Source: a virus. From it: a stretch of DNA of 64,000 bases. Below the pieces are notes generated by a model, which was given only the letters and a program-made list of their open reading frames with translations, was not told the origin of the DNA and did no database searches. This document shows, in pieces, positions 13,302-45,301 of this stretch. The stretch is taken from positions 6,899-70,898 of IMG/VR virus record IMGVR_UViG_3300047509_000270. One strand, 5' to 3'. Both the position numbers and the translations under genes were made by a program. How positions within the stretch are numbered: the first letter of the stretch is position 1; each line of letters begins with the position of its first letter.

Positions 13302-15336
13302 GGATCGTGGCGCCGAGACGACGACGCTCGTCGAGTCCGGAAACGGCGAGCGCGAGTCGGAGAGCCAGACCGAGCTCGTCGAGCGCGCCGATCTCGCCGA
13401 ACAGACCGAAGAGCCCGCGAAGATGAAAGTCCAGATCGAGGGGACCGCGTCCGCGGTCCGCGCGGCTGCGCGGAAAGTCGCCAACTCGCCCGCCCAGCGG
13501 CCCGCCCCGCCGCCCTCCGAGCCCGAGGAGCCGCCCGACAACACGGATGAGCTGCTCGCGGACCCGCGGAACATGGTCGTCGTCCGTCGTCAGCTCCCGA
13601 AGTCCGTCGAGCTGGGTGACGGCCGCCGGATCCGGACCGGCACGAAGATGCCTGAGCCGTATTCCTGCCCGACGACGCGCGAGGAGATCGAGAACGACGT
13701 TTTCGACAACTACGGCGGCTACAAGTACAAGTGCTCGATTCATCCGGCGACGACGAATGGCGAGAATACGCTGCTCGGCGCCTTCACGATCGAGCATCCG
13801 GACGGCCCCGACACGATGCCGATCGTCGAGGGCCTCGATCTGAACGAGCAGCAGACCCAGGTGGACCCTCGCACGGCGCTCCACACGTCGAGCGGCGATT
13901 CGACGATGCGAGACACGGACCCGTACGCGAAGATGCGCCAGGAGGCCGAGCTGCGTCTCGACCGTGCGAAGGCGAAGAAGGACGCCCTGCTGCTCGAGGC
14001 CGAGGCGAAAAAGATGGAGGCTGAGATCGAACGGATCGGGAAGGCCGACGCCGCCCCGGTCGTGCCTCCCGGCGAGTCCGACGAAGTGAGGAAGCTCCGC
14101 GAGCAGGTCGCCGAGAAGGACCGTCAGCTTGCCGAGAAGAAGATCGATGATCGCTTCGCGATGATCCAGAATTCCATCCTCGAGCTGACCAAGACGGTCA
14201 CGACGCTCGCGACCACGAAGCCCGCGGTGGTCGGCGAGGATCCGACGCTGAAGTTCATCATGAAGAAGATGGACAACGACGCGACGCAGATCAACACGCT
14301 GATGACCGCGCTGACCGCGAAGGCCCCGGCCCCGGTCCATACGACCGGCGACGACCTCGACAAGTTCCTGAGCCGCGCCGAGAAACTGAAGGCGATCACG
14401 GGCGGCGGCGAGAAGAGCGGCGGCCGTCTGTCGGAGGTCGAGAACCGTCTGATCGACATCGCCTGGGAGAAGCTGAACGGCGGCGATGAGGGCGGTGGCG
14501 GCGACGAGAACGAGGACATCGGCAAGCTGGCCGTCAAGGAGTTCGCGCCGATCCTGAAGAGCTTCGTCGACAAGAAGATGGCCCAGGAAGCATCGACGAC
14601 CGGTGCCGCACCGTCGCCCGAGCGCGAGAACCAGATCCGCGAGGAGGCCGCGAAGTTCGCCGTCCAGAAGATCGCCGAGAGTCTGCACGCGCAGGGCATC
14701 CAGCTGACGACCGGGCCCGACGGGAAGCTGCTCGCGATCACCGGCAAGCCGACCGGCAAGGTCACCGTCCCGCCGCGCCACGCCGGGACGAAGGTCATGT
14801 CCTCGCAGCAGACGCAGGGCGGCCTCGTCAAGAAGATCGCAATCACGCCGACCGACCTGATGAACAAGACGGAGCCGGAGCCGAAGCCCGAGGCGGAGGC
14901 ACCGACCGAAGGAGGCGAGGTGACGCACGGAGTGTTCCCGATGCTCGGCGATGGCGGGACGACGCTGAAGATCAAGTTCCCGATCCATCCCGGCGAGATG
15001 AAGTACGACCGGAAGACCTCCGTCGACTTCGTCCTGGCCGGTATCCGCTCGGAGATCCGTCAGCAGTTCCCCCAGAAGGCCGACGCGGGCAAGCAGGTCG
15101 AGAGCTACGTCCCCTCCGACGCGATCGAGTTCCTCGACGAGGACCTGCTGAACAAGCTCGAGGCGATCGACAGCGGTCCGCAGCTCGAGACGCTGCTCGC
15201 CGAGTCCGGCGGCGACCGCGCCCAGATCGACGAGATCAAGAAGTCCGGCGAGGACGAGGTCGTCGCGAGCTTCCTCCGGCGCATCATCAAGACGATCCAG
15301 ACCGAATGGGCGGTCCAGAAGAGACAGGGCAAGTAG
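13243..15336 (+). CDS. Large coiled-coil protein of unknown function
   Basis: ATG 13243 (MPKKKK) after GGAG; E/K/A-rich helical segments. Confidence 0.75.
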   Translation: MPKKKKQESALPESPLDLPEDRGAETTTLVESGNGERESESQTELVERADLAEQTEEPAKMKVQIEGTASAVRAAARKVANSPAQRPAPPPSEPEEPPDNTDELLADPRNMVVVRRQLPKSVELGDGRRIRTGTKMPEPYSCPTTREEIENDVFDNYGGYKYKCSIHPATTNGENTLLGAFTIEHPDGPDTMPIVEGLDLNEQQTQVDPRTALHTSSGDSTMRDTDPYAKMRQEAELRLDRAKAKKDALLLEAEAKKMEAEIERIGKADAAPVVPPGESDEVRKLREQVAEKDRQLAEKKIDDRFAMIQNSILELTKTVTTLATTKPAVVGEDPTLKFIMKKMDNDATQINTLMTALTAKAPAPVHTTGDDLDKFLSRAEKLKAITGGGEKSGGRLSEVENRLIDIAWEKLNGGDEGGGGDENEDIGKLAVKEFAPILKSFVDKKMAQEASTTGAAPSPERENQIREEAAKFAVQKIAESLHAQGIQLTTGPDGKLLAITGKPTGKVTVPPRHAGTKVMSSQQTQGGLVKKIAITPTDLMNKTEPEPKPEAEAPTEGGEVTHGVFPMLGDGGTTLKIKFPIHPGEMKYDRKTSVDFVLAGIRSEIRQQFPQKADAGKQVESYVPSDAIEFLDEDLLNKLEAIDSGPQLETLLAESGGDRAQIDEIKKSGEDEVVASFLRRIIKTIQTEWAVQKRQGK

Positions 15337-15361
15337 CCGAACCGAATACAGGAGAGAGACG

Positions 15362-15667
15362 ATGCCGCATCTCGAAGACAAACCGGTCCAGGATCTCATC
15401 ATCGACCAGATTCAGGAGATCTTCCGTCAGTCCTTCATCATGGGCGAGCGTGCCGTCCTGGAGGCCGCGAAGCGGAACGGACTGAGCGAGTCCGAGACGA
15501 AGGAACTCCTGATCGCGAACGGTCTCCCGATCGGCATGGAGTTCATGAAGCAGATCACGAACACCGCGCAGATCGTCGAGCGTGCCAACCCGAAGGACGT
15601 CGACAAGATGATCGAGTCGATGGACCTCGTCCTCGACTACGTTCGCAAGAAGAACAAGCTCGACTGA
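15362..15667 (+). CDS. Hypothetical protein
   Basis: RBS AGGAG; helical composition. Confidence 0.7.
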   Translation: MPHLEDKPVQDLIIDQIQEIFRQSFIMGERAVLEAAKRNGLSESETKELLIANGLPIGMEFMKQITNTAQIVERANPKDVDKMIESMDLVLDYVRKKNKLD

Positions 15668-15711
15668 CGGGCACTCCTGAAAACTGACCGTGTACACGGA
15701 GACCCGTCGAC

Positions 15712-16053
15712 GTGGAAAGTGAACAGGACGCGCTGCTCCGCAAGCAGCGCGAGCAGGTCATCCAGGCCTTCAGGGATCTTGCAACGGCGACGGCGAACCT
15801 CGTCGCGGCCACCTCGAACTCCGCCGCCGTCTCGAAGAAACAGATCGAGATCACGAACTCGCTGATCGACACGGCGGCCGGTCTCGCCGAGACGATCATG
15901 ATACCGAAGGATGGACTCCGCGACGTCGTCGACGAGCTGATCGACGAGGTCCGCGGACTCCGCGAAGATCTCCGCGTCATCGTCCAGGCGAGCGGTCTGA
16001 AGTCGGCGCTGACCGGGCTGTTCGAGCAGCTCCCCCGAGGAAAGAAGTTGTGA
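15712..16053 (+). CDS. Coiled-coil hypothetical protein
   Basis: Heptad pattern LIDEVRGLREDLR. Confidence 0.65.
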   Translation: MESEQDALLRKQREQVIQAFRDLATATANLVAATSNSAAVSKKQIEITNSLIDTAAGLAETIMIPKDGLRDVVDELIDEVRGLREDLRVIVQASGLKSALTGLFEQLPRGKKL

Positions 16054-16054
16054 C

Positions 16055-16201
16055 GTGCGGTTCCTCCGATGGCTCCGTCAGGTCTGGTGCGGGATCCGTC
16101 GTGGACACGAGCCGCACGTCGAGAACGTCGCCGCGCTCTGGGGGAGGACGCGCTGGTGTAAGGTCTGTCGCCACTGCGGAACGGTTCTCGAAATTCTCTG
16201 A
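16055..16201 (+). CDS. Small Cys/His protein (48 aa)
   Basis: Below the track cutoff; MRFLRWLRQVWCGIRRGH...CKVCRHCG. Confidence 0.5.
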   Translation: MRFLRWLRQVWCGIRRGHEPHVENVAALWGRTRWCKVCRHCGTVLEIL

Positions 16202-16213
16202 TTCCTATTTCCC

Positions 16214-16242
16214 TTGACAACTGAACCTTCTCGTCGCAGAAT
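16214..16242 (+). promoter_or_regulatory. Sigma70-like promoter upstream of the structural operon
   Basis: TTGACA-N17-CAGAAT. Confidence 0.65.
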
Positions 16243-16280
16243 GTGACATAGAGATTTGGCGGATCGCCCGTACTGGGCGG

Positions 16281-16312
16281 AAAAGCCGCGGCGGAAACGC
16301 CGTGGCTTTTTT
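16281..16312 (+). terminator. Leader intrinsic terminator or attenuator
   Basis: AAAAGCCGCGGCG-GAAA-CGCCGTGGCTTTTTT hairpin with T tract, between the promoter and the Com-like gene. Confidence 0.7.
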
Positions 16313-16329
16313 CGTATGGGATACGAAAG

Positions 16330-16512
16330 ATGCCTGAGAGCAGCACGGTCGGCGGGGACCTTCGGTGTCCGGCCTGCGCGAACTGGATCCTGAGAGGATC
16401 GTTCGAGGGTGGGCTGAACCTGAAGTGCGGCAACAAGAGATGTGCCGCGCAGCTCCTGGTGGAGATGCGGTCCGGTAAGCCGACGATCACCGTGCTCTCG
16501 ACGAGAAAGTAG
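16330..16512 (+). CDS. Com-like zinc-ribbon regulator
   Basis: DLRCPAC..WIL......LKCGNKRC pattern resembles Mu Com-type zinc ribbons. Confidence 0.6.
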   Translation: MPESSTVGGDLRCPACANWILRGSFEGGLNLKCGNKRCAAQLLVEMRSGKPTITVLSTRK

Positions 16513-16695
16513 GCGGATCGCCCGTCCTGGGCGGACAGCCTGGAGAGATCCAGGGAGCGCAATGCGCTGTTCGCCCGAACTCGCCGCTCACGACAAAGCT
16601 CTCCTTTCCAACTTCGTTCCTTCTTCTCCGTGGGAGCTCAGTTCCAAAAAGCTGAGCTCCCACGACCCCTATACCGACCTCGCCGGAGGCTCCCG

Positions 16696-18303
16696 ATGAG
16701 CTCGACCGTCGAGGGTCTCGACCGCGGCGTCTCCGGCACGTCGGCGACGCTCGAGAAGATGCACAAGCTGGTCGCGCTCGGCAAGCTCGACCCGACCATC
16801 CAAAAGATCGCGACCTGGATCCGTCTTTCCGTTCCACAAGATCGTCGCGGCAAGACGACCGACACGGCCGACGCGATCTTCCAGTGGACCAAGGACCACG
16901 GGATCTTCCAGTCGGACCCGTTCCAGATCGAGAAGATCGAGCATCCGATCGAGGCGATGCGCGCCGTCATCGAGAGCCGTCAGAACGGCAGCTACTCCGG
17001 CCCCGGGCTCTTCGTCGGCGACTGCGACACCTTCGCGGTCTTCGTCGCGTCGCTCGGCGGCGTGCTCGGCTTCCAGTACGCCTTCGAGACCGCGAAGGTC
17101 GACGCGAGCCGTCCGGACGAGTTCTCGCACGTCTGGACGTCGCTGCTCGTCAACGGCGACTGGTACCCGCTCGACTCGTCGACACCGGGCGCCTATCCAG
17201 GCTGGCGTCCGCCGGTCGCGCCGGAGCTCCTGGCGCGTTGGCCGGAGCATCCGATCGAGGACGTCGTCGGGAGGTCCGAAATGAGCTCCATGAATCGAGG
17301 TCTCGGCGACGCCGACAACAATGCCTCGCCGCTCGCCGACGTCGACGCCGCCTACCCGAAGGACTACGTCGCCTACGGGATCCCGCGGGACTTCGGCGCC
17401 GGGCCCGGCGTCATTCCAGTCGCGAACTTCGACAACATCCAGCTGCTCCCACCGCACGAGACCCAGATCCCAGATGCCGACCTCCAGCCGGACATGCACT
17501 TCCTGAAGGCGGCGCCCCTGGTCAATCCGTCCGAGCGGATCCAGTCGATCGCCGGACAGCCCGACGACCACGGGAACCCCTACTACAACACCAAGGGCGG
17601 CGTGCCGCCCTACTACAAGGTCCAGCGTCAGTTCTACCCGCCCGGCTCGCGTTGGAACGGTCCGATGGGCGAGGACACCGTCCGGTACGTCAAGACCGGC
17701 GCGTACGTGAAGGTCAAGTCCGGTGAATCACCCGAGAGACAAGTGAGGACGAACATGGGACAGCCGATGACTCTCAAGCGCCGCAACGTCATGGTCACGC
17801 CGCGCCGGGTACCGTACGGCGCGATGGAGGGGTACGGCATGGGCGACGACGTTCCCGGGATCGTCACCTCGCTCGACACGCCGTCGGACTCGACCTCGCC
17901 GGAGGTCGCCGCGACGACCGCGCAGACCTCCGCACCGACCTCCGACTGGCAGAGCACGCTGGTCACGAACAACCAAGTCGCCGCGCCGACGCCGACGTCC
18001 GCGGCGAAGTCCTCGCCGACCGCCTCCGCTGCCGCCGCGGGCGGAACCTCGGTCTGGGACTCGATCTCGGCCGCCTTCAAGGCGGTCGGGACGGTCGCGC
18101 CCGTCGCGCTGCAGTCCTCGCTCGCGCAGTCCGTCATCAACGCGACGAACAAGCTGGCCGGGAAGCAGGTCCTGGCGCCCGGCACGACGGTCCCCTGGTA
18201 CCTGAACCCCGTCACGCTCGGCGCGCTCGCCCTGATCGGCGGCGGCGCATGGTACATCACGTCGAAGTCCCGTCCCGGCAGCCGTCGGAGCCGCCGTCGA
18301 TAG
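16696..18303 (+). CDS. Transglutaminase-like Cys-His-Asp protein with a C-terminal membrane anchor (candidate virion protease)
   Basis: GDCDT, FSHVW, WYPLDS triad; S/T/A/P-rich linker; C-terminal TM plus Arg tail; ATG 16696 after GGAGG. Confidence 0.8.
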   Translation: MSSTVEGLDRGVSGTSATLEKMHKLVALGKLDPTIQKIATWIRLSVPQDRRGKTTDTADAIFQWTKDHGIFQSDPFQIEKIEHPIEAMRAVIESRQNGSYSGPGLFVGDCDTFAVFVASLGGVLGFQYAFETAKVDASRPDEFSHVWTSLLVNGDWYPLDSSTPGAYPGWRPPVAPELLARWPEHPIEDVVGRSEMSSMNRGLGDADNNASPLADVDAAYPKDYVAYGIPRDFGAGPGVIPVANFDNIQLLPPHETQIPDADLQPDMHFLKAAPLVNPSERIQSIAGQPDDHGNPYYNTKGGVPPYYKVQRQFYPPGSRWNGPMGEDTVRYVKTGAYVKVKSGESPERQVRTNMGQPMTLKRRNVMVTPRRVPYGAMEGYGMGDDVPGIVTSLDTPSDSTSPEVAATTAQTSAPTSDWQSTLVTNNQVAAPTPTSAAKSSPTASAAAAGGTSVWDSISAAFKAVGTVAPVALQSSLAQSVINATNKLAGKQVLAPGTTVPWYLNPVTLGALALIGGGAWYITSKSRPGSRRSRRR

Positions 18304-18309
18304 GAACGA

Positions 18310-18591
18310 ATGAACCGTATCGTTTACGTCCGGAGACCCGGCCTGAGCGGCGTCGGCGACGTCACCTCGTCGATCACCGACGCGGCCGTCGCGTCGATGA
18401 CGCCCGCGATCCGCGACATCATGATCAACGACGTCGTCCCGATGCTCGGCGTCTTCATGATCGCAGGCGCCGTCTCGGCGGCGTTCATCGGGACGTGGTT
18501 CGGCCACCGGGCCCAGCGCAACTACTCCGGTGTCCGGAGGAATCCGGTCGCCCGCACGCACGTCTCGCTTCGTCGCCGGAGGACCGCGTGA
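18310..18591 (+). CDS. Small membrane virion protein
   Basis: One TM helix; GLSGVGD and RRNP motifs. Confidence 0.7.
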   Translation: MNRIVYVRRPGLSGVGDVTSSITDAAVASMTPAIRDIMINDVVPMLGVFMIAGAVSAAFIGTWFGHRAQRNYSGVRRNPVARTHVSLRRRRTA

Positions 18592-20963
18592 GAGTCGCGA
18601 AGAATCCGCCGTCCTTCATCCTGGTCGACAAGGAAACCGGCGACGTCGTCTATACGAAGCGTGCGACCGGTGTCGGCTCCGAGGCGATCCGTAAGTGCGT
18701 TGAGAAGGGCCGCGCGCTCACCGCTCGGACCGGCCGGACCTACTTCGTCTACCTCGACATCATGGGCGCGAAGGTCGGTATGAAGCTGTCCGTGCCGATG
18801 GCGTACGCTCTCGGGATCACCGAAGAGATCGGTCCCAAGGGAAGCGCGATGCCGTCGGGTCGTAAGTGCTGCTTCGCTCCGGACGTGCGTCCGTCCGGAC
18901 AGGGGATGCGTTGCATGAATTGCCAGCGTTGGGAGGCCGACAACTACCTGAAGAATCCTCGCCGCGCGCCGGTCCGTCGGAATATCTACGCCTTCAACAA
19001 TCCGCCGTCTGGTCCGGCCGATCCGACTGCGGCGCGCGAACTCGAGCTGTATATCAGCAACGACTCGCAGCTCTACCATTCGCAATTCATCCCGATCGTG
19101 AAGAACCTGATGCTGAAGCGTCGGAAGGGCGTCTACAACCGTGAGCTGACGGTCAAGCTCTTCATGTACCTGATGGATGCCGGTGCGAAGAAGTACGTGA
19201 GGGAGTTCGGAACCGGCGGGAACATCGACACGATGTTCAACAAGAACACGCGCATGGCCGCCGCACGCGCCTTCCGTGACTCCTTCGAGACCGAAGCCGA
19301 GCTCGGGAACTACGACCGGATGATCGGACCCGTCTCGAATCCACTGAACCGCAAGGAAGTCGCTCAGGTCATCAACATGTCGAGAGATATCGCCAGGACC
19401 GCCATCAGAGCGAAGAAGCTCGGCGATGCCAGTCGAGCGAAGGCGAACCTCGCTTACGGTCGAGGGATGCTCGACGTCTCGATGACGTTCTCGCCGCAGG
19501 GCACCCGTAAAGGTGTCAGAAACATGCTCGACCGGTACAACACCATCGAGCGTCGTGAAAGCTCCAGGAGCAATCCGTCCATCCGCGAGAACATCTACAC
19601 GTTCAATAATCCGCGCAAGCTCAACGCGATGGAACGCGCCGCTTCGCTCTTCAACCTCTCCGTTGCGACCTGGGCGCCCGGCGACGGCCTGACACGCTAC
19701 CGTTTCTTCAAGGCGTCCGGACATGGACCGTACGCCGACTACCACCAGGGTGGCGCGATCTATACGGCGAACGGTCGCGGCGAGGCGATAAAGTTCCTGA
19801 AGGCGTACGGCGTCGGCCGCTCGCGGATGAATCCGTCGCCGCACGATCCGTCCGGACTCGCCGAGCTCGACGCGCGCATGAACGACCTGATGCGTCGCAT
19901 GGACGCGATGAAAAAGAGCGGGACCGACAACCGTCCCGAATACATGATCCTCCTGAAGGAGGCTCAGGCGGTCTCGCAGAAGCGTCTCGCTCTGATCGGC
20001 CTCGGGTCGACCTCGATTCAGAAGGGCTTCACGCGCCGGAACCCATGCTCGAATCCGACCTGCAGGATCAAAAAGCACGGACACGTCCGTCAGAACCCGA
20101 TCCTCCAGACGATCTTCCTGGCGAACCCGCCGATCTCGGCGCAGTGGGACCGACTGACCGGCCGCCAGCGCCTCCAGGTCCTCGGCTTCGTCGGCTTCGA
20201 GGAGACCGCCAGCCGGTACGTCCGGCTCCCCTGGAAGCTCCTGTCGAGCATGGTCAGGGAAGCCCTCGAGCAGTACTGGCTCGACTCGACGTCGACGCGC
20301 GGCACGACGCGCCGTCGGATGGCGCCGGTCGGCGCGAATCCGCTGACGCGCCGTGAGGCAGGCAGGATCATCGGCGAGGCGAAGCGCGACATCCGATACG
20401 GCTCCGGATTCCGCTCCGGAGAATTCACCCGTACCGTCAGCGCCGGACAGGCGTTCGGGAAGTCGAAGGTCGTCCGGAAGTACGGCCCGAAGAGCGCCGG
20501 ACGTGCCGCGGCGAAGATCGCCGACAAGGCGCACAAGATGGCCGGGACGATCTTCTCGAACCCCGGCGTCAGCCTCCCGCGTCCCGGCACGAAGCTGACG
20601 ATCTCCCAGGCGCTCGACCTCGCCGAGCGTCTCGGTAACCGCGAGCTCGTCAAGCAGTGCCACGCGGCGATGAAGCTCCAGAAGGCCGCCAACAAGGACG
20701 CGAAGTGCGTCATCTGGAAGGTCTTCCCGATGGGCTCGAAGGACAAGATCGACTCGGTCGTCGCCCTGACGCACTACGGCGACTCGCCGGAGACGATGTA
20801 CAAGCCGCCGCCCGGCTCGAAGAAGGGCAACCACATGTACCGGCACAACTGGGGCGAGAAGGGCGGCAAGCAATCCGTTCCGCTGCTCGCCTCCCCGGAC
20901 GGCAAGATGCTCATGATGCCGCTCGAGGGCCGGAAGGTCGCGTCGGACTGGCTGAGGCATTGA
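18588..20963 (+). CDS. Basic multidomain (polyprotein-like) protein with 13 Asn-Pro motifs
   Basis: GTG 18588 after GGAGG overlaps the upstream stop; segments bounded by KNP/NNP/SNP/RNP/ANP. Confidence 0.75.
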   Translation: MRVAKNPPSFILVDKETGDVVYTKRATGVGSEAIRKCVEKGRALTARTGRTYFVYLDIMGAKVGMKLSVPMAYALGITEEIGPKGSAMPSGRKCCFAPDVRPSGQGMRCMNCQRWEADNYLKNPRRAPVRRNIYAFNNPPSGPADPTAARELELYISNDSQLYHSQFIPIVKNLMLKRRKGVYNRELTVKLFMYLMDAGAKKYVREFGTGGNIDTMFNKNTRMAAARAFRDSFETEAELGNYDRMIGPVSNPLNRKEVAQVINMSRDIARTAIRAKKLGDASRAKANLAYGRGMLDVSMTFSPQGTRKGVRNMLDRYNTIERRESSRSNPSIRENIYTFNNPRKLNAMERAASLFNLSVATWAPGDGLTRYRFFKASGHGPYADYHQGGAIYTANGRGEAIKFLKAYGVGRSRMNPSPHDPSGLAELDARMNDLMRRMDAMKKSGTDNRPEYMILLKEAQAVSQKRLALIGLGSTSIQKGFTRRNPCSNPTCRIKKHGHVRQNPILQTIFLANPPISAQWDRLTGRQRLQVLGFVGFEETASRYVRLPWKLLSSMVREALEQYWLDSTSTRGTTRRRMAPVGANPLTRREAGRIIGEAKRDIRYGSGFRSGEFTRTVSAGQAFGKSKVVRKYGPKSAGRAAAKIADKAHKMAGTIFSNPGVSLPRPGTKLTISQALDLAERLGNRELVKQCHAAMKLQKAANKDAKCVIWKVFPMGSKDKIDSVVALTHYGDSPETMYKPPPGSKKGNHMYRHNWGEKGGKQSVPLLASPDGKMLMMPLEGRKVASDWLRH

Positions 20964-20973
20964 GGGTGAGACC

Positions 20974-22080
20974 ATGATCGGAGCACTCGTATTCGCGAAC
21001 CCCGGGCGGCCTGTCGCCGCACGGAGGAGACGTTCTCGTTCCAGAACCGCCCGCACGACGGGCAAGGAGATTCGGATGGCACGCTCCCGTACGCGCCGTC
21101 GGGCAGGGCGGCGTATGAGAAATGCCAAGGGGCATTTCGTCAAGGCACGTCGGTCGTCCCGGCGTCGTCGCAACCCCAGCGGTCACATCAAGGTCGGTCG
21201 CCGCTGGAGGAAGATCACGAAGTTCGCCACGCGCCGCAAGCGCGGCAAGCATCGCGGACAGATCCGTGGCTTCCACTTCCCGAAACGCTACCGCCAGAGC
21301 CGTCGGCGTCGGGTTCACGCGAACCCGGTCGTCGTGTCGAATCCGCGTCGGCGTCGGGCCCGTCGGAACCCGTACCGCAGCCATCGTCGCCGGTACGCCC
21401 GCCGGAACCCCGCGGTGTCGTATCGCCTGTCGAGCGACCCGATCGCGGCCCTGAAGAACGCCCTGATGTCGGCGTTCTCGATGGACACCCTCGAGACTCT
21501 CGTCCACATGGGCGTCGGCTTCGGCGGCGCCCTGACGCTGGGCAAGTGGCTGTACGTCCAGCCCTGGATGCCCGCCACGGCCGGTTCCGCGTCGTTCGTG
21601 AAGGTCGGCTCGACCTTCCTGTCGACGGCGGTCCTGACCGCCATGTCGGCCGTCCTGAAGCAGCCGCGCCTGACCGCGCGGATCCTGACCGGCGGCCTCT
21701 TCGCGACGCTCTGGCAGGGGCTCTCCGAAGCGGTCTCGGGTACCCAGGTTCAGCAGTACATCCCGACCCTGTCGGGCTCGCCGGAGACCGACGCCTTTCG
21801 CAAGGCGATCGAGTCCGAGGTCCTCAAGGAGCTCAAGGGCGGCGGCGTCCACGGCTACCTGCGTGCGGCCGGATCCGAGGGGATCTCGACGTACCTGCAG
21901 CCCGCCGGGATCAGCTACCTGCGCCCGGCCGGTTCCGAGGCGTACCTGACCAAGGTCAACACCGAGCGTGCGAACGCCGGGATGAGCGCCTACATGACCG
22001 AGGTCAACACCGAGATGGCGAATGCCGGAGTCGGTGACGACGACGAGTTCTCCCGTCGGGGGATGCCGGAGAAGTTCTAG
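20974..22080 (+). CDS. Arg-rich core/DNA-condensing membrane protein
   Basis: Poly-Arg N-terminal half with 6 NP motifs; hydrophobic helices; C-terminal repeats. Confidence 0.7.
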   Translation: MIGALVFANPGRPVAARRRRSRSRTARTTGKEIRMARSRTRRRAGRRMRNAKGHFVKARRSSRRRRNPSGHIKVGRRWRKITKFATRRKRGKHRGQIRGFHFPKRYRQSRRRRVHANPVVVSNPRRRRARRNPYRSHRRRYARRNPAVSYRLSSDPIAALKNALMSAFSMDTLETLVHMGVGFGGALTLGKWLYVQPWMPATAGSASFVKVGSTFLSTAVLTAMSAVLKQPRLTARILTGGLFATLWQGLSEAVSGTQVQQYIPTLSGSPETDAFRKAIESEVLKELKGGGVHGYLRAAGSEGISTYLQPAGISYLRPAGSEAYLTKVNTERANAGMSAYMTEVNTEMANAGVGDDDEFSRRGMPEKF

Positions 22081-22098
22081 TCCGAGCGACTAAGAGGA

Positions 22099-22212
22099 GC
22101 ACCGGAGACGAGAGTCTCCGGTGCCTCCCCTCTGGAGGCCCTGATGGACCTCCCGAGGGGAGTGGGCTACGAGCGCCAGCCTGCCCAGCGGCATTTTTGT
22201 GGACGAAAGTCC
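22099..22212 (+). other. Structured 5' leader of the capsid gene
   Basis: GCACCGGAGAC-GAGA-GTCTCCGGTGC and GGAC-GAAA-GTCC GNRA hairpins plus a GGAGG/CCTCC stem. Confidence 0.5.
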
Positions 22213-22250
22213 CGGCCGGAAGTGGCGCGCGAGACTGAAAGGTGGAAGAC

Positions 22251-22889
22251 ATGGCGAACGGAGCCGCGCCCGCGGACCAGGGCGTGACGGTGGTCCAGCC
22301 CTACTACAAGATCACCCAGGGCGTGCCTGCGGCGATCGTGCGGTCGTACAAGGAACCCCTGTACGACTCGGAAGTGATCCTCGCCGCGACGCCGTCGCGC
22401 GAGTTCACGCTGTACCAGAAGCCCGTCGGCCAGAGCATGAACGACGGCACGGTGAAGACGTTCCTGTATTCGAATCAAACGCAGGCGGGGTCCTTGGGCA
22501 CCCCCTTGAGTTTTGACGTGTACGGGTTCAATGCCCGCGTCTGGGCGTCGCCGTCCTCGAAGATCCTCTCGATCGGCAACTACACGCTCGTCGAAGCGGC
22601 GGGCGTGTCCGAGGTGATCTTCGGCCAGGACACGAAGTTCCTGACCATTCCGATCGAAGACGTCCCCGCGGGCGTCGACACGGAGGGTCTGGGCGCGACC
22701 GACGCGCCGCACATCGGCTGGGGCGTCAGCGATAACATCTACCGGTTCGACATCGGTGGACGTGCGCTGCACATCAACTCGACGGAGCCGTACTCCGTCA
22801 AGATCAGCTGGCCGAGCGGCCTGACCGGCACGACCGGCAACCTGCTGTTTCGGTGGTTCATTCGGGGTATCCGCTACAAAGGCGTCTAG
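22251..22889 (+). CDS. Putative single jelly-roll major capsid protein
   Basis: 212 aa, beta-strand-rich; PLYDS...LYQKPVG...KT...SN...GSLGTP..F pattern; isolated by structured UTRs; strong codon bias. Confidence 0.6.
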   Translation: MANGAAPADQGVTVVQPYYKITQGVPAAIVRSYKEPLYDSEVILAATPSREFTLYQKPVGQSMNDGTVKTFLYSNQTQAGSLGTPLSFDVYGFNARVWASPSSKILSIGNYTLVEAAGVSEVIFGQDTKFLTIPIEDVPAGVDTEGLGATDAPHIGWGVSDNIYRFDIGGRALHINSTEPYSVKISWPSGLTGTTGNLLFRWFIRGIRYKGV

Positions 22890-22911
22890 AGCGCCTTTCG
22901 CGCGCAACTTC

Positions 22912-22935
22912 GGACGCACTCGCGAGAGTGCGTCC
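22912..22935 (+). other. Perfect GNRA hairpin after the capsid gene (stabiliser or terminator)
   Basis: GGACGCACTC-GCGA-GAGTGCGTCC. Confidence 0.6.
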
Positions 22936-23020
22936 CTTGATGGGCCCGAAAGACTAGCAACAAGCGCCCGCACTGTGCGCGGTCCGCTTCCCTGCTGAGA
23001 TAGCTCGGAAGGAGACGACG

Positions 23021-23965
23021 ATGAGCTGGGGTCAGGTACCGACATTCCTGCGCGACAAGGATTCCGGCAAGATCTACATGAACCCGGCGAAGGACTGGGT
23101 TCAGCCATTCGAGCTGACGGTCTCGAAGCCGAACCAGCTGATCCACCTCGCCGCGGGCGAGAACCGCGGGCCCTTCCCGCTGACCGCCCAGTACGACGGT
23201 CCGATCGAGTGCTTCTACGTAAAGTGCAACGTCTACGCGCCCGCCGACGATCCGACGCTGCCGGGCGCGCTCGTCCAGACCTACGACATCGACTTCCTGC
23301 TGGAGCATCCCGGCAAGCGGATCCAGTTCTCCAATCGGAAAGTTCCGCTGATCGCGCTCTCCGGGAATGCCGCGCAGCCGTACGTCCTGCCGGAGACGAT
23401 CTTCATCCCGCCGGTCCAATCGCTCAATCTGACGCTCGTCAACAACGACCTCGTCAACGCCCGCTTCGTCGAGTTCGTCCTGGGCGGCATCAAGTTCTAC
23501 CCGAACATGGCTCCGGCCGGGGCGATCAAGGACGAGGTCTGGAAGTACGTCGACCGTCGCGAGCGGACCTACGCCTACTTCCAGACGACCGACGAGCCGG
23601 TCGTCCTGACGGCGGGCCAGGAGAACATCTTCTTCATGACGATCCCGGACAACTCCGACTTCGAGTGCTTCAAGCTGACCCAGCAGTCGACCGGCCAGTT
23701 CCGCTGTCTGGTCCGGGACGGCCAGAACGATCGCGCCCTGACCGGCGACCGGGTCCACCGGGACCTGCTGTTCGGCGGGCACGCCGAGATGCCGGACGGT
23801 GCGGGCGCGTTCCTCGGGTCCGGTGGGATCTGGCCCGCCCGCTGGGCGGCCTCCTGGCTGATCCGCCGCTCGACGAAGGTCCAGCTCGACCTGCTGGACA
23901 TCTCCGGTGCGGACAACACGATCAAGCCGGTCTTCGCGGGGAGAAAGATCTCGTATGTCAGCTAA
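23021..23965 (+). CDS. Putative capsid protein with a tandem duplicated beta domain (double jelly-roll-like)
   Basis: The halves align: LAAGEN/LTAGQEN, IECF/FECF, FVLGGIKF/VFAGRKI. Confidence 0.6.
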   Translation: MSWGQVPTFLRDKDSGKIYMNPAKDWVQPFELTVSKPNQLIHLAAGENRGPFPLTAQYDGPIECFYVKCNVYAPADDPTLPGALVQTYDIDFLLEHPGKRIQFSNRKVPLIALSGNAAQPYVLPETIFIPPVQSLNLTLVNNDLVNARFVEFVLGGIKFYPNMAPAGAIKDEVWKYVDRRERTYAYFQTTDEPVVLTAGQENIFFMTIPDNSDFECFKLTQQSTGQFRCLVRDGQNDRALTGDRVHRDLLFGGHAEMPDGAGAFLGSGGIWPARWAASWLIRRSTKVQLDLLDISGADNTIKPVFAGRKISYVS

Positions 23966-24680
23966 GAAACCGCCGCGTCCTCCGGGACGCCCGCCGGGTC
24001 CCCCGCGCGGGGGCGGCATGGGCGGTCCGGACCACGAGGGCTACCACTACGAGGGCTGGCGCGATGCCGGACAGGGCGAGCCGCGTCCGGAGGACGTCGT
24101 CTTCGATCCGTCCTGTCCGCCGCCGCCGGACCCGTGCGGCAAGCCGAAGGTCTGCTTCGTCAAGTTCCCGGCCTTCAATCAGCCGCCCTGGTTCGCGAAG
24201 CCGCTGATCAAGGTCCGCTCGTCGCTGATCATCCCGGCCGGTTCGATCGCGCTCGTCTTCGACCGCGAGATCGCCGACCGGCAGCGCGCCGTCTCGTCGT
24301 TCCTCGGGATCGACGTCGCGCCGATCGCGCCTCTCATGAACTCGCAGCTCGAGTTCTGGTTCCAGCTCGGCAAGAAGGGCGTCGCCGAGCCCTCGAAGAA
24401 CATCATCCAGGTCTGGGACGACCAGAATCCGAACTCGTACGGGACCTCGCACGCGATCCAGTCCGGACGGACGACGGTCTGGCCGGGCGTCGGGACGCCG
24501 CTCAAGTTCTTCGAGGCCGGGCTGCAGTTCGGCCTCCGTGGACGCTGCCAGTTCCAAGGCCTGATCGAGAACCGGTCCGGCGTCGACGTGACGATCCGCG
24601 CGCTCTTCGGCTACTACTACTACTGGGCGAGCGCGAAGGGCGGAGCCTCGGAGTTCGAGTCCGGCGACTTCGAGTCGTAA
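23955..24680 (+). CDS. Putative minor capsid protein (Pro-rich N-terminus plus beta domain)
   Basis: ATG 23955 overlaps the upstream gene; beta-rich C-terminal domain. Confidence 0.55.
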   Translation: MSAKKPPRPPGRPPGPPRGGGMGGPDHEGYHYEGWRDAGQGEPRPEDVVFDPSCPPPPDPCGKPKVCFVKFPAFNQPPWFAKPLIKVRSSLIIPAGSIALVFDREIADRQRAVSSFLGIDVAPIAPLMNSQLEFWFQLGKKGVAEPSKNIIQVWDDQNPNSYGTSHAIQSGRTTVWPGVGTPLKFFEAGLQFGLRGRCQFQGLIENRSGVDVTIRALFGYYYYWASAKGGASEFESGDFES

Positions 24681-44583: not shown

Positions 44584-45078
44584 GTGACGAAGAGAGATCG
44601 GGAGCGTTTCTGGGCTAAGGTCCGCGTCGATCGTGAGACCGGCTGCTGGATCTGGACAGCGTCGGTTAGGACCTGGAAGCGAGAGCCCTGGGACGGCGGC
44701 TTTGGTGCCTTCAAGCTCTACGGGAAGGTCGAGCGCGCCCACAAGGTCGCCTACCGGATCCTGTTCGGCTGCTGGCCGCCGCGCGGACTAGTCCTCCGGC
44801 ACGGCTGCGACAACCGGCGCTGCGTCAACGTCCTGGCGCACATCGAGCCGGGCACGCAGAAGCAGAACGTCGACGACATGATCGCTCGAGGAAGGTCGAT
44901 TCAGCAGCGTCGAAAGGCTACAATCCTTCAGGGAGACGAGAATGGGCAACCCGCGACTTCGGAAAGGCAAGGCAAATCCGTACGGTCCAACCGGCTTGTC
45001 GAGGCAGGTTTTGATGCAGTTGGAGGGTGGACCCGCAACGATCAGTTTTATCCTTGGCAAGATGGTACCGCGCAGTGA
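44584..45078 (+). CDS. HNH endonuclease
   Basis: RFWAKV..CWIWT..AHKVAY..HGCDNRRCVN..H..GTQKQNVDDM. Confidence 0.85.
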   Translation: MTKRDRERFWAKVRVDRETGCWIWTASVRTWKREPWDGGFGAFKLYGKVERAHKVAYRILFGCWPPRGLVLRHGCDNRRCVNVLAHIEPGTQKQNVDDMIARGRSIQQRRKATILQGDENGQPATSERQGKSVRSNRLVEAGFDAVGGWTRNDQFYPWQDGTAQ

Positions 45079-45301
45079 TGGCATTCACCGCGGGACTATC
45101 CTGACAGTTCTGAACAGGGCGATCATGAACGGCCTCGTCACGACGAATCGACTCGACGGAGCGAAGAAGCCGTACCTGTTCGAATTGACCGACGGCGGTC
45201 GGCGCCGCGTGAAGTGGATCCGCGGCGCGGTCAAGGTCAAGACACGTCCGGCGACCGGCCTCCGTGCGGTCGCGAACCCGAAGGATCCTGAGGAGGAGTG
45301 A
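44942..45301 (+). CDS. Winged-helix DNA-binding protein
   Basis: TILTVLNR...GLV...FELTDGGR. Confidence 0.6.
   Translation: MGNPRLRKGKANPYGPTGLSRQVLMQLEGGPATISFILGKMVPRSDGIHRGTILTVLNRAIMNGLVTTNRLDGAKKPYLFELTDGGRRRVKWIRGAVKVKTRPATGLRAVANPKDPEEE

What the first reader, a model, noticed from the sequence alone, without database searches (positions are those of the whole stretch)
18588..20963. Polyprotein-like ORF built from modules separated by Asn-Pro motifs
Seen: 13 NP dipeptides (KNPP, KNPR, NNPP, SNPL, SNPS, NNPR, MNPS, RNPC, SNPT, QNPI, ANPP, ANPL, SNPG), often preceded by Arg/Lys, delimiting segments of up to about 120 aa. The linker RxNIYxFNNP occurs twice, and two segments begin alike (NPLNRKE, NPLTRRE). 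One segment (ELELYISND..LY...KGVY) resembles, from memory, stand-alone small phage proteins. Inference: a cargo polyprotein that is packaged and cut at NP to release several effectors (for example anti-defence proteins), with NP as the cleavage or packaging signal.
Basis: partly seen in the sequence, partly recalled or inferred. Interest (0 to 1): 0.85.

Follow-up and report, generated by a model that had tools for sequence, protein, structure and literature searches.

The report
Asn-Pro-seamed mosaic viral protein
A very basic protein of an uncultivated soil virus is a string of small, interchangeable folded modules, each introduced by the pair Asn-Pro, which looks like a cut-here or joint mark, although no cutting has been shown.

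Summary
The ORF (18588-20963, +; 791 aa) has 13 Asn-Pro pairs against 2.3 expected (0 of 20,000 shuffles). In an AlphaFold model, 12 of the 13 lie in low-confidence linkers between about 8 folded mini-domains.

All 53 relatives show the same excess. Cutting 54 proteins at NP gives 32 recurring module families in 52 different orders. Homology breakpoints sit on NP.

Three modules also exist as stand-alone small viral proteins that lack NP. The constant parts are a C-terminal domain with no solved structural relative and an NP-flanked hydrophobic peptide.

Nearly all modules are basic (448 of 478). The next gene is a protamine-like protein with the same NP punctuation. A transglutaminase-like Cys-His-Asp protein lies two genes upstream. 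This trio recurs in a lineage whose capsid candidates are only 23-29% identical.

Cleavage, packaging and effector function are inferred, not shown. This scan has reported the same phenomenon on other DNA several times. My searches found no paper on it.

The parts
18588..20963 (+). Whole CDS, 791 aa, net charge +68; GTG start with GGAGG upstream
18606..18956 (+). Module M6 (res 7-123): alpha/beta domain followed by Cys-rich hairpins; N-terminal module in 21 of 54 family proteins
18957..19001 (+). Linker 1 (res 124-138), PRRAPVRRNIYAFNN, first copy of the RxNIYxFNNP linker; pLDDT below 50
19002..19340 (+). Module M5 (res 139-251), the ELELYI helical domain; widespread, with stand-alone viral homologues
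19341..19574 (+). Module M1, first copy (res 252-329), basic three-helix bundle starting PLNRKE
19575..19610 (+). Linker 2 (res 330-341), PSIRENIYTFNN, second copy of the linker
19611..19832 (+). Module M3 (res 342-415), alpha/beta, WAPGDGxTRYRF motif; stand-alone small ORFs in 7 of 7 distant viral loci
19833..20042 (+). Module M24 (res 416-485), helical hairpin
20043..20093 (+). Short NP-rich stretch (res 486-502) with a Cys-x4-Cys-x5-His-x-His pattern (candidate metal knuckle)
20094..20129 (+). NP-flanked hydrophobic peptide NPILQTIFLANP (res 503-514); found in 50 of 54 family proteins
20127..20339 (+). Module M4 (res 514-584), small helical domain, in 40 of 54
20340..20561 (+). Module M1, second copy (res 585-658), basic three-helix bundle starting PLTRRE
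20562..20960 (+). Module M2 (res 659-791), the constant C-terminal domain (52 of 54); modelled alone at pLDDT 87.3; no solved structural relative found
16630..18303 (+). Neighbour: transglutaminase-like protein with invariant C132/H167/D182 and a C-terminal membrane helix; candidate processing enzyme
18310..18591 (+). Neighbour: 93-aa basic hydrophobic (probably membrane) protein with one RRNP near its C-terminus; conserved upstream partner
20974..22080 (+). Neighbour: Arg-rich protein (net +56) with 6 NP against 0.6 expected, followed by a hydrophobic half

Best explanation
The ORF encodes a 'string of modules'. About eight small, independently folding, mostly basic domains (70-133 aa) are joined by disordered linkers. 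Each linker ends in Asn-Pro 2-13 residues before the next domain's first helix or strand.

The modules are cassettes that the virus lineage swaps freely, and some are ordinary stand-alone small viral proteins elsewhere. Only an NP-flanked hydrophobic peptide (NPLLQTVxxANP) and the C-terminal domain M2 are constant.

Most likely the chain is made late, together with the protamine-like neighbour. It is then taken into the particle with the DNA by way of its constant C-terminal part and its positive charge. The NP seams are then processing sites where the chain is cut into separate small proteins and peptides. The cutting agent would be a virus enzyme, for which the transglutaminase-like Cys-His-Asp protein two genes upstream is the only candidate, or the known Asn-Pro self-scission chemistry.

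Shown: the seams, the modularity, the stand-alone homologues, the charge and the conserved gene trio.

Inferred: late expression, packaging, cutting, which agent cuts, and what the released modules do.
For: - NP excess: 13 against 2.27 expected, 0 of 20,000 shuffles. It is seen in 53 of 53 relatives, 7-16 against 1.0-2.9.
- Position in the model: 12 of 13 Asn lie inside pLDDT<50 segments and the 13th is 2 residues from one. pTM is 0.25, so there is no fixed arrangement between domains.
- Modules: 32 recurring module families in 52 different orders among 54 proteins.
- Breakpoints: 31% of 3,653 internal alignment ends lie within 2 aa of an NP against 7% for random positions. Alignment starts pile up on N (266 of 1,979) and ends on P (242 of 1,796).
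- Motif: only N and P are invariant in 593 distinct seam contexts. Several NP are invariant in otherwise variable linkers.
- Stand-alone forms of M5, M2 and M3 lack NP. The stand-alone M2 begins where the seam would be.
- Charge: 448 of 478 modules are net positive. The target is +8.6 and the next gene +15.2 per 100 aa, against -6.6 to +2.6 for most other proteins.
- Specificity: NP excess is confined to this gene and the next.
- Gene order: TGase-like, small membrane protein, string, Arg-rich NP protein, two capsid candidates, kept in 6 of 6 close loci.
- Divergent lineage: the TGase-like gene lies upstream in 5 of 5 loci that reach far enough. An Arg-rich NP protein lies downstream in 3 of 3 examined.
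- Candidate enzyme: C132/H167/D182 are invariant in 6 of 6. Two homologues pass Pfam Transglut_core at 26.0 and 31.2 bits against a cut-off of 23.
- Chemistry: Asn|Pro self-cleavage is established in RsgI (PMC10328401, passages read) and in aquareovirus VP5 (PMC9148132, passages read).
Against: - No data show any cut product, and no proteomic evidence was available.
- The window's own 557-aa protein gets no Pfam, NCBIfam or PDB-sequence hit. Only 2 of 112 relatives carry Transglut_core. That superfamily also holds non-protease enzymes.
- M2 has no protease-like conserved triad and no structural match.
- Known Asn|Pro self-cleavage happens in folded, strained turns, whereas these seams are in linkers.
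- Some NP lie 4-14 residues apart, around a conserved Cys/His pattern and a conserved decapeptide. This suggests that those NP have a structural or docking role.
- One relative has an NP inside the folded M5 domain.
- Seven of 88 NIFxF linkers read N-N-x-P and four have no such Pro (three NNG/NNE endings and one unrelated YHCG match).
- No portal, terminase or capsid family was recognised near the gene. 'Virion block' therefore rests on gene order and unverified capsid candidates.
Confidence: 0.4

Rival explanations
1. The chain stays uncut. It works whole, as a multivalent, DNA- or membrane-binding core protein. Asn-Pro is a structural joint (an Asx-Pro turn or kink) that insulates neighbouring mini-domains and starts each module cleanly.
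For: - Modules are almost uniformly basic (448 of 478).
- NP sits 2-7 residues before the first helix or strand of most modules, and the spacing after the previous module is variable.
- Closely spaced NP lie inside a conserved Cys/His pattern and around a conserved decapeptide.
- In the neighbour's orthologues, NP alternates regularly between poly-Arg runs and hydrophobic hexapeptides, like joints in a membrane-plus-DNA tether.
- No protease is proven.
Against: - A mere flexible or insulating joint does not need two invariant residues kept across 593 distinct contexts and more than 30 unrelated folds.
- Stand-alone versions of the modules do without NP.
- Other lineages join the same M5 domain with quite different linkers.
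Confidence: 0.28
2. The seams cleave themselves, with no protease. The Asn side chain attacks its own peptide bond in front of Pro (succinimide route). This happens either slowly in the particle or when triggered by assembly or entry.
For: - The only invariant feature is the exact dipeptide used by known Asn|Pro self-cleaving proteins: RsgI (PMC10328401) and aquareovirus VP5 (PMC9148132), passages read in both. FlhB/SctU NPTH was seen only as search listing and abstracts.
- No extended recognition motif surrounds NP.
- The candidate enzymes that earlier notes of this scan name beside NP strings differ from one virus to another (unchecked notes).
Against: - The known cases need a folded, strained environment with helper residues (PMC10328401, section 9 passages). 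Here the seams are in low-confidence linkers next to more than 30 different folds.
- The uncatalysed reaction is slow (recalled, not checked here).
Confidence: 0.12
3. NP, or NP with the constant NPLLQTVxxANP peptide, is a docking or packaging signal read by a capsid, membrane or chaperone protein. It is not a scissile site.
For: - The NP-flanked peptide occurs in 50 of 54 family proteins and goes together with M2 (47 of the 49 that match the M2 motif).
- In the short lineage it sits at the extreme N-terminus. From memory, that is where T4 internal proteins carry their capsid-targeting sequence.
Against: - Thirteen copies of a two-residue signal per chain are far more than docking needs.
- Docking motifs usually show more conserved positions than the two seen here.
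Confidence: 0.1
4. The protein is not a particle component. It is an intracellular multi-domain accessory protein of the polyvalent type, made in the cell, and the NP seams are inherited joints from cassette recombination at the DNA level.
For: - Architecture is extremely mosaic (52 orders in 54).
- It is the least conserved gene of its block.
- The 30-nt linker coding for RxNIFxFNNP is repeated 2-3 times per gene and flanks the most variable part.
- Asn codon AAT is used in 9 of 13 NP but in 3 of 27 other Asn.
Against: - The AAT preference before Pro also holds in other genes (11 of 23 against 64 of 266), so it is not a seam-specific DNA signal.
- Six shared bases cannot guide recombination.
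- The position between conserved late-looking genes is kept in two divergent lineages.
- NP is conserved at the protein level with varying Pro codons.
Confidence: 0.07

Closest known systems
Polyvalent proteins of phages and conjugative elements (Iyer, Burroughs, Anand, de Souza, Aravind 2017, PMC5512222; passages read with 'find')
   Same: - Many unrelated domains sit in one polypeptide of a mobile element.
- Domain architectures are strongly mosaic.
- Members are often encoded beside particle genes and are predicted to travel with the DNA.
- Processing into parts has been proposed.
   Different: - The polyvalent proteins described there are built largely from recognisable enzymatic and anti-restriction domains, often with a metallopeptidase domain.
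- Here no module matches any Pfam, PHROG or NCBIfam family.
- Here the modules are small and basic, there is no peptidase domain, and a strict Asn-Pro seam joins them.
- The word 'linker' does not occur in that paper's main text. Its supplementary files could not be seen.
   Same: - Basic, DNA-associated internal proteins are made as precursors.
- A short cut motif is repeated at junctions.
- A cysteine protease is encoded by the virus.
- An Arg-rich precursor is chopped into small peptides.
   Different: - The motif here is Asn-Pro, not Gly-Gly-X or (M/I/L)XGX-G.
- The candidate enzyme is transglutaminase-like, not adenain-like.
- Module content is freely shuffled between relatives.
- Cutting is unproven.
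Asn|Pro autoproteolysis (anti-sigma factor RsgI, PMC10328401; aquareovirus VP5 / orthoreovirus mu1 Asn42-Pro43, PMC9148132)
   Same: The same scissile dipeptide is used. In the reoviruses the cut occurs in a particle protein as a maturation or entry step.
   Different: - Those cases have a single site in a folded turn with helper residues.
- Here there are 7-18 sites per chain in flexible linkers beside unrelated folds.
- There is no sequence or fold relationship.
T4 internal proteins (IPI-III, Alt) with a capsid-targeting sequence removed by the prohead protease - recalled
   Same: - Small basic proteins are packed with the DNA and delivered into the host.
- A short targeting peptide is removed after packaging.
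   Different: - In T4 these are separate genes, not one chain.
- The cut motif is L/I-x-E.
- T4 is a tailed phage with portal and terminase, none of which was recognised here.

Membership tests
Polyvalent proteins (Iyer et al. 2017) | Two to 15 distinct domains in one polypeptide of a phage or plasmid | tested here: met
   The model has about 8 folded modules. The family has 32 module families. The source is a complete virus record.
Polyvalent proteins (Iyer et al. 2017) | Domains drawn from the known pool of effector, anti-restriction or 'large polyvalent protein-associated' domains | tested here: not met
   Pfam, PHROGs and NCBIfam gave 0 significant families for the protein, 9 relatives and the stand-alone modules. 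Only the distant P0055 hits DUF6926.
Polyvalent proteins (Iyer et al. 2017) | Variable, mosaic domain architecture among relatives | tested here: met
   52 distinct module orders among 54 proteins.
Polyvalent proteins (Iyer et al. 2017) | Peptidase (MPTase) domain in the same chain | tested here: inconclusive
   No peptidase family hit. M2 has no clear triad, and its best structural match is Z 3.9.
Protease-processed virion polyprotein | Short conserved motif at every domain junction | tested here: met
   NP lies at the junctions, and only N and P are invariant.
Protease-processed virion polyprotein | Cognate virus-encoded protease | tested here: inconclusive
   A transglutaminase-like Cys-His-Asp protein lies two genes upstream and is conserved in both lineages. 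Protease activity is not shown, and the window's copy has no direct family hit.
Protease-processed virion polyprotein | Separate products present in particles | not testable with these tools
   No proteomic data. No RNA holder was listed either.
Asn|Pro autoproteolytic domains (RsgI-PD, reovirus mu1/VP5, FlhB/SctU) | Scissile Asn-Pro within a folded turn with neighbouring helper residues | tested here: not met
   12 of 13 NP lie in pLDDT<50 linkers. There is no common flanking residue.
2A / StopGo peptides | D(V/I)ExNPGP consensus | tested here: not met
   NPGP occurs 0 times in the protein and accounts for 8 of 649 NP in the family. 2A is also not known to work on bacterial ribosomes (recalled).
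Transglutaminase-like superfamily (neighbour gene 16630-18303) | Cys-His-Asp triad in a Transglut_core domain | tested here: met
   C132, H167 and D182 are invariant in 6 of 6. Homologues P0280 and P0290 (59-61% and 58% identical over the query region) pass the Pfam cut-off. The window's own copy scores below E 0.1.

The most novel reading that the evidence does not exclude
Asn-Pro is a general, protease-independent 'perforation'. On this reading, whole lineages of uncultivated viruses string small proteins into one chain. They load the chain into the particle through a constant end, and the chain comes apart at its Asn-Pro seams by Asn cyclisation, with time or at entry. One gene would thus deliver a freely re-assortable set of proteins.
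Probability: 0.12. Interest if true: 0.9.

Novelty: new variant of a known kind. Interest (0 to 1): 0.68.

Why it matters
If the seams are cut, this would be a new processing code. It would be a two-residue mark shared by many uncultivated viruses: 51 of 83 long representative hits are NP-enriched, as are 19 of 27 long ORFs in metagenome loci.

It would also be a new way for a virus to carry a re-assortable set of small proteins in one gene.

It would give function-free 'dark' viral proteins a handle. Each NP-bounded piece is a defined domain that can be expressed and tested on its own.

If the seams are not cut, the protein is still an unusual, highly mosaic, basic core protein. Its virus group has no cultured relative: there was no match in 50,697 phage records or in 185,579 species genomes.

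Tried and rejected
**Family searches**
- Pfam, PHROGs and NCBIfam on the protein, its neighbours, 9 relatives and 10 stand-alone module proteins gave nothing significant.
- The precomputed label PF26832 on 5 relatives could not be resolved. My Pfam scan of one of them (P0023) returned nothing.

**Structure searches**
- Foldseek on the full model against PDB: nothing at E<=0.001.
- VIA-align on the full model: only generic three-helix-bundle matches to residues 251-332, Z up to 10.5, below the tool's bar for helical bundles.
- M2 modelled alone: best Z 3.9, with 0 of 48,161 chains at Z>=5. Best Foldseek E was 1.1.
- Atlas search on M2: no usable hit by features, TM up to 0.42.
- PDB sequence search with profiles of the TGase-like protein and of the 314-aa capsid candidate: only chance-level rows, E 0.24 and 0.0095.
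- Because of this I could not confirm that 22242-22889 and 23021-23965 are capsid proteins.

**Searches for relatives and host**
- tblastn of M5, M2 and both capsid candidates against GenBank phages: no match.
- Two scans of species genomes: no relative, so no host lead.
- Single-protein scans of viral contigs with P0051 and P0304: nothing.

**Sequencing runs**
- Only two soil-metagenome runs were listed, both kept as contigs. No RNA holder was listed.
- Laid on the window, the second run holds fragments identical to it. It is therefore the same virus, not a mosaic relative. Nothing was learnt about module exchange.

**Ideas rejected or left open**
- A DNA-level seam signal was rejected. The AAT-CCN preference also holds in other genes.
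- A 2A-type skip was rejected.
- The gene context of stand-alone M5 genes was uninformative. Nine of 10 neighbours had no family, and one SprT-like match scored 25.2 bits, just under the 25.6 cut-off.
- Complex prediction was not used. I had no well-founded pair, and enzyme-substrate pairs are discouraged.

**Literature**
- 'polyprotein + bacteriophage + Asn-Pro' gave 4 unrelated papers, of which 3 were listed.
- 'DUF6926' gave 0 papers.
- 'Salisaeta icosahedral phage' gave 20 papers (10 listed), seen as listing only and not followed.
- Supplementary files were not consulted. Those of PMC5512222 may list domains related to the modules here.
Full report
**What is there.** The frame is open from 18249, but the probable start is GTG at 18588. 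GGAGG lies 7 nt upstream, and the start overlaps the stop codon of the preceding 93-aa ORF (GTGA). The product has 791 residues and a net charge of +68.

The expected number from composition is 2.27, and none of 20,000 shuffles reaches 13. NP is the most enriched dipeptide, 5.7-fold.

The linker RxNIYxFNNP occurs twice. Two segments start NPLNRKE and NPLTRRE, but they share only 8 of 18 residues directly (E 0.002). Both are three-helix bundles in the model.

Among 365 mechanical ORFs of 60 aa or more in the window, this ORF and its downstream neighbour are the two most NP-enriched. In 25 other likely genes, NP occurs at about the expected rate.

**Where it lies.** The window is bases 6899-70898 of a 70,898-bp virus record with direct terminal repeats, rated 100% complete. 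One arm carries a primase-polymerase/D5 helicase, an AAA_24 protein and a DEAD-type helicase.

The target lies in a co-oriented block of genes without any family match. I recognised no portal, terminase or capsid family. The two 'capsid candidates' downstream (22242-22889 and 23021-23965) are names taken from gene order and from an earlier unchecked note. I could not verify them.

**NP marks the seams.** An AlphaFold2 model built with 30 relatives has mean pLDDT 65.6 and pTM 0.25, so it shows folded pieces without a fixed mutual arrangement. Twelve of the 13 Asn lie inside the listed segments with pLDDT below 50. The thirteenth (N6) is two residues from one.

Between the seams the model shows these pieces:
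- an alpha/beta domain with Cys-rich hairpins (residues 7-110);
- a helical domain (139-247);
- two three-helix bundles (252-328 and 585-657);
- an alpha/beta domain (342-411);
- a helical hairpin (416-470);
- a small helical domain (514-566);
- the C-terminal domain.

The C-terminal domain was poorly modelled in the full chain. Modelled alone with its own alignment, it reached pLDDT 87.3 and pTM 0.76.

NP lies 2-7 residues before the first helix or strand of six of the eight downstream domains. The two exceptions are M5 (8 residues) and M2 (14 residues). The distance from the end of the previous domain varies from 2 to 19 residues. The seam therefore belongs to the start of a module.

**Relatives.** A word-indexed search found 54 further proteins, mostly on contigs of about 70 kb, covering 12-100% of the query. 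All 53 true family members have 7-16 NP against 1.0-2.9 expected. The outlier P0055 shares only the ELELYI domain and has 1 NP.

I cut the 54 proteins between N and P, which gave 703 pieces. The 478 pieces of 20 aa or more cluster into 32 recurring families and 39 singletons. There are 52 different module orders among the 54 proteins.

Some modules (M12, M14, M15, M17, M10) occupy different positions in different proteins. Module frequencies are M2 in 52 of 54, M1 in 46, M3 and M4 in 40 each, M5 in 36 and M6 in 21.

Homology breakpoints coincide with the seams:
- Of 3,653 distinct internal ends of pairwise local alignments, 31% lie within 2 residues of an NP against 7% for random positions. 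The median distance is 6 against 22.
- Alignment starts peak on the Asn (266 of 1,979) and ends peak on the Pro (242 of 1,796).
- In 593 distinct seam contexts only N and P are fixed. Position -1 prefers S/N/R/A, -2 prefers R/F/L/C, and +2 prefers L/G/P/R.
- Several NP are invariant columns in otherwise variable linkers.

There are exceptions. Seven of 88 NIFxF-type linkers read N-N-x-P, and four have no such Pro (three NNG/NNE endings and one unrelated YHCG match). One relative has an NP inside the folded ELELYI domain.

**Stand-alone modules.** An exhaustive HMMER search of 1.84 billion representatives gave 2,688 hits at E<=0.001. Most of the best 150 match only residues about 139-247 (M5) or 657-790 (M2).

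- Proteins of 135-150 aa consist of M5 alone and contain no NP.
- A 133-aa protein is M2 alone and starts where the seam would be.
- M5 matches stand-alone viral proteins of 99-115 aa in BFVD, with 31-42% identity and TM 0.79-0.86 normalised to the target. It also matches viral clusters of 107-125 aa in the Atlas, by features (107-121 aa, scores 0.77-0.79) and by structure (118-125 aa, TM by query 0.80-0.82).
- M3 occurs as a small ORF in 7 of 7 distant viral loci, in frames of 91-175 aa with 0-1 NP.

Among 136 representative hits, 51 of 83 proteins of 300 aa or more are NP-enriched (Poisson p<0.001). That is about one NP per 67 residues. Twenty of 53 shorter proteins have no NP at all.

In 54 metagenome loci, 19 of 27 ORFs of 300 aa or more are NP-enriched. 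Eleven of 12 complete ORFs under 200 aa have at most one NP. The same M5 domain also sits in multi-domain proteins that use other linkers.

**Constant parts.** M2 ends the chain in 52 of 54 proteins. Its invariant residues (G73, Y80, P83, G85, H95, W97 in M2 numbering) do not form an obvious catalytic set. The confident model has no solved relative: best Z is 3.9 and best Foldseek E is 1.1.

A hydrophobic peptide bracketed by two NP (NPLLQTVxxANP; here NPILQTIFLANP, residues 503-514) is present in 50 of 54 proteins, including 47 of the 49 that match the M2 motif. Two of the four without it begin inside the peptide. In the short lineage it lies at the extreme N-terminus. Its role is unexplained.

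**Charge and neighbours.** 448 of 478 modules are net positive, 18 are neutral and 12 are negative. Per 100 residues the target has +8.6, the 93-aa upstream protein +9.7 and the downstream gene +15.2. Most other proteins lie between -6.6 and +2.6, with one other at +8.9.

The downstream protein (20974-22080) has 6 NP against 0.6 expected in its Arg-rich half.

The order 730-aa protein, transglutaminase-like protein, 93-aa protein, string, Arg-rich NP protein, two capsid candidates is kept in 6 of 6 close loci. The string is the least conserved gene, at 45-67% identity in its best-aligned segment, which spans the whole query in only one locus. The capsid candidates are 70-92% identical.

A second lineage has capsid candidates only 23-29% identical to the window's. 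There a transglutaminase-like gene lies upstream of the NP string in 5 of 5 loci that extend far enough. An Arg-rich protein with NP lies directly downstream in 3 of 3 examined loci (9 against 0.8, 8 against 0.9, and 4 against 0.5 expected). In these proteins NP alternates between poly-Arg runs and hydrophobic hexapeptides.

**The candidate enzyme.** C132, H167 and D182 of the 557-aa protein are invariant in 6 of 6 aligned orthologues. So is an NP (N526-P527) directly before the C-terminal membrane helix.

The window's copy has no direct Pfam, NCBIfam or PDB-sequence hit. Two of 112 relatives carry Transglut_core, and both pass the curated cut-off in my own scan (26.0 and 31.2 bits against 23). 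Two other relatives do not.

This makes it a member of the transglutaminase-like superfamily. It does not make it a proven protease.

**Reading.** The strict two-residue motif is kept across hundreds of linkers beside unrelated folds. It is absent from the stand-alone forms and is shared with a protamine-like neighbour. This fits a processing mark best.

The known cases of Asn|Pro self-cleavage are RsgI (PMC10328401), aquareovirus VP5 (PMC9148132), and FlhB/SctU (seen only as listing and abstracts). They show that this bond is chemically special, but they act in folded turns.

Against cutting stand four points. There is no product data. Some NP are closely spaced within conserved short elements. 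The uncut 'jointed core protein' reading remains possible. The protease is unproven.

I put the cut-at-NP cargo or core chain at 0.40, the uncut jointed chain at 0.28, self-scission at 0.12, a docking signal at 0.10 and a non-virion accessory protein at 0.07.

**Known or new.** The closest published concept is the polyvalent protein (PMC5512222). The string shares its logic but not its domains, and that paper does not describe such seams. Its supplements were not seen. My two literature searches found no paper on Asn-Pro seams in phage proteins.

Earlier notes of this scan describe the same phenomenon in other viruses, and none of them has evidence of cutting.
- the seam and breakpoint statistics;
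- the charge rule;
- the stand-alone forms of three modules;
- the constant NP-flanked peptide;
- a confident model of M2 without a known relative;
- the Transglut_core assignment by way of homologues;
- the conserved trio in a second lineage.

Noticed in passing
window 20974-22080 (+); L016:11167-12729; L026:6166-7416; L068:10380-11657: The gene after the string encodes an Arg-rich protein (net +56) with 6 NP against 0.6 expected, followed by a hydrophobic half. In a divergent lineage its counterparts (net +83 to +98) alternate poly-Arg runs with hydrophobic hexapeptides such as VLPISW, each bracketed by NP.
   Followed up: partly
window 16630-18303 (+): This is a transglutaminase-like protein. 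C132, H167 and D182 are invariant, and an NP (N526-P527) is invariant directly before its C-terminal membrane helix. Two homologues pass Pfam Transglut_core, but the window's own copy does not.
   Followed up: partly
window 20094-20129 (+), residues 503-514: The hydrophobic peptide NPILQTIFLANP is flanked by two NP. It is present in 50 of 54 family proteins and lies at the extreme N-terminus in the short lineage. Its function is unexplained.
   Followed up: partly
window 20043-20093 (+), residues 486-502: A Cys-x4-Cys-x5-His-x-His pattern has NP embedded in it (NPCSNPTCRIKKHGH). A loose pattern search finds something similar in 19 of 54 family proteins. It may be a small metal-binding knuckle.
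   Followed up: no
window 18588-20963 and other genes: Asn before Pro is coded by the rare AAT in 9 of 13 seams, against 3 of 27 other Asn in the gene. In other genes of the window the figures are 11 of 23 against 64 of 266, so this is at least partly a genome-wide codon-pair effect.
   Followed up: partly
window 44942-45301 (+): A 119-aa ORF in the accessory region has NP near both ends (MGNP, KANP ... VANP; 3 against 0.45 expected). It looks like a single module that kept its seams.
   Followed up: no
whole record (G000, 70,898 bp): The genome is complete with direct terminal repeats. No portal, terminase or capsid family was recognised among the ORFs scanned. There is no relative in 50,697 GenBank phage records or in 185,579 species genomes, and the first 6.9 kb hold only small ORFs.
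   Followed up: partly
window 15000-24000: A second soil metagenome run from another study holds fragments identical to the window at low depth. The same virus therefore occurs in at least two samples, and the first sample may be the source of this DNA.
   Followed up: partly
L054:14420-15115: A protein with a near-threshold SprT-like match (25.2 bits, cut-off 25.6) lies about 4 kb from a stand-alone M5-type gene in a 94-kb contig.
   Followed up: no
relatives P0005, P0010, P0012, P0021, P0023: These carry a precomputed Pfam label, PF26832. I could not reproduce or name it with the local Pfam copy. By module content it may correspond to the zinc-ribbon module M16.
   Followed up: partly
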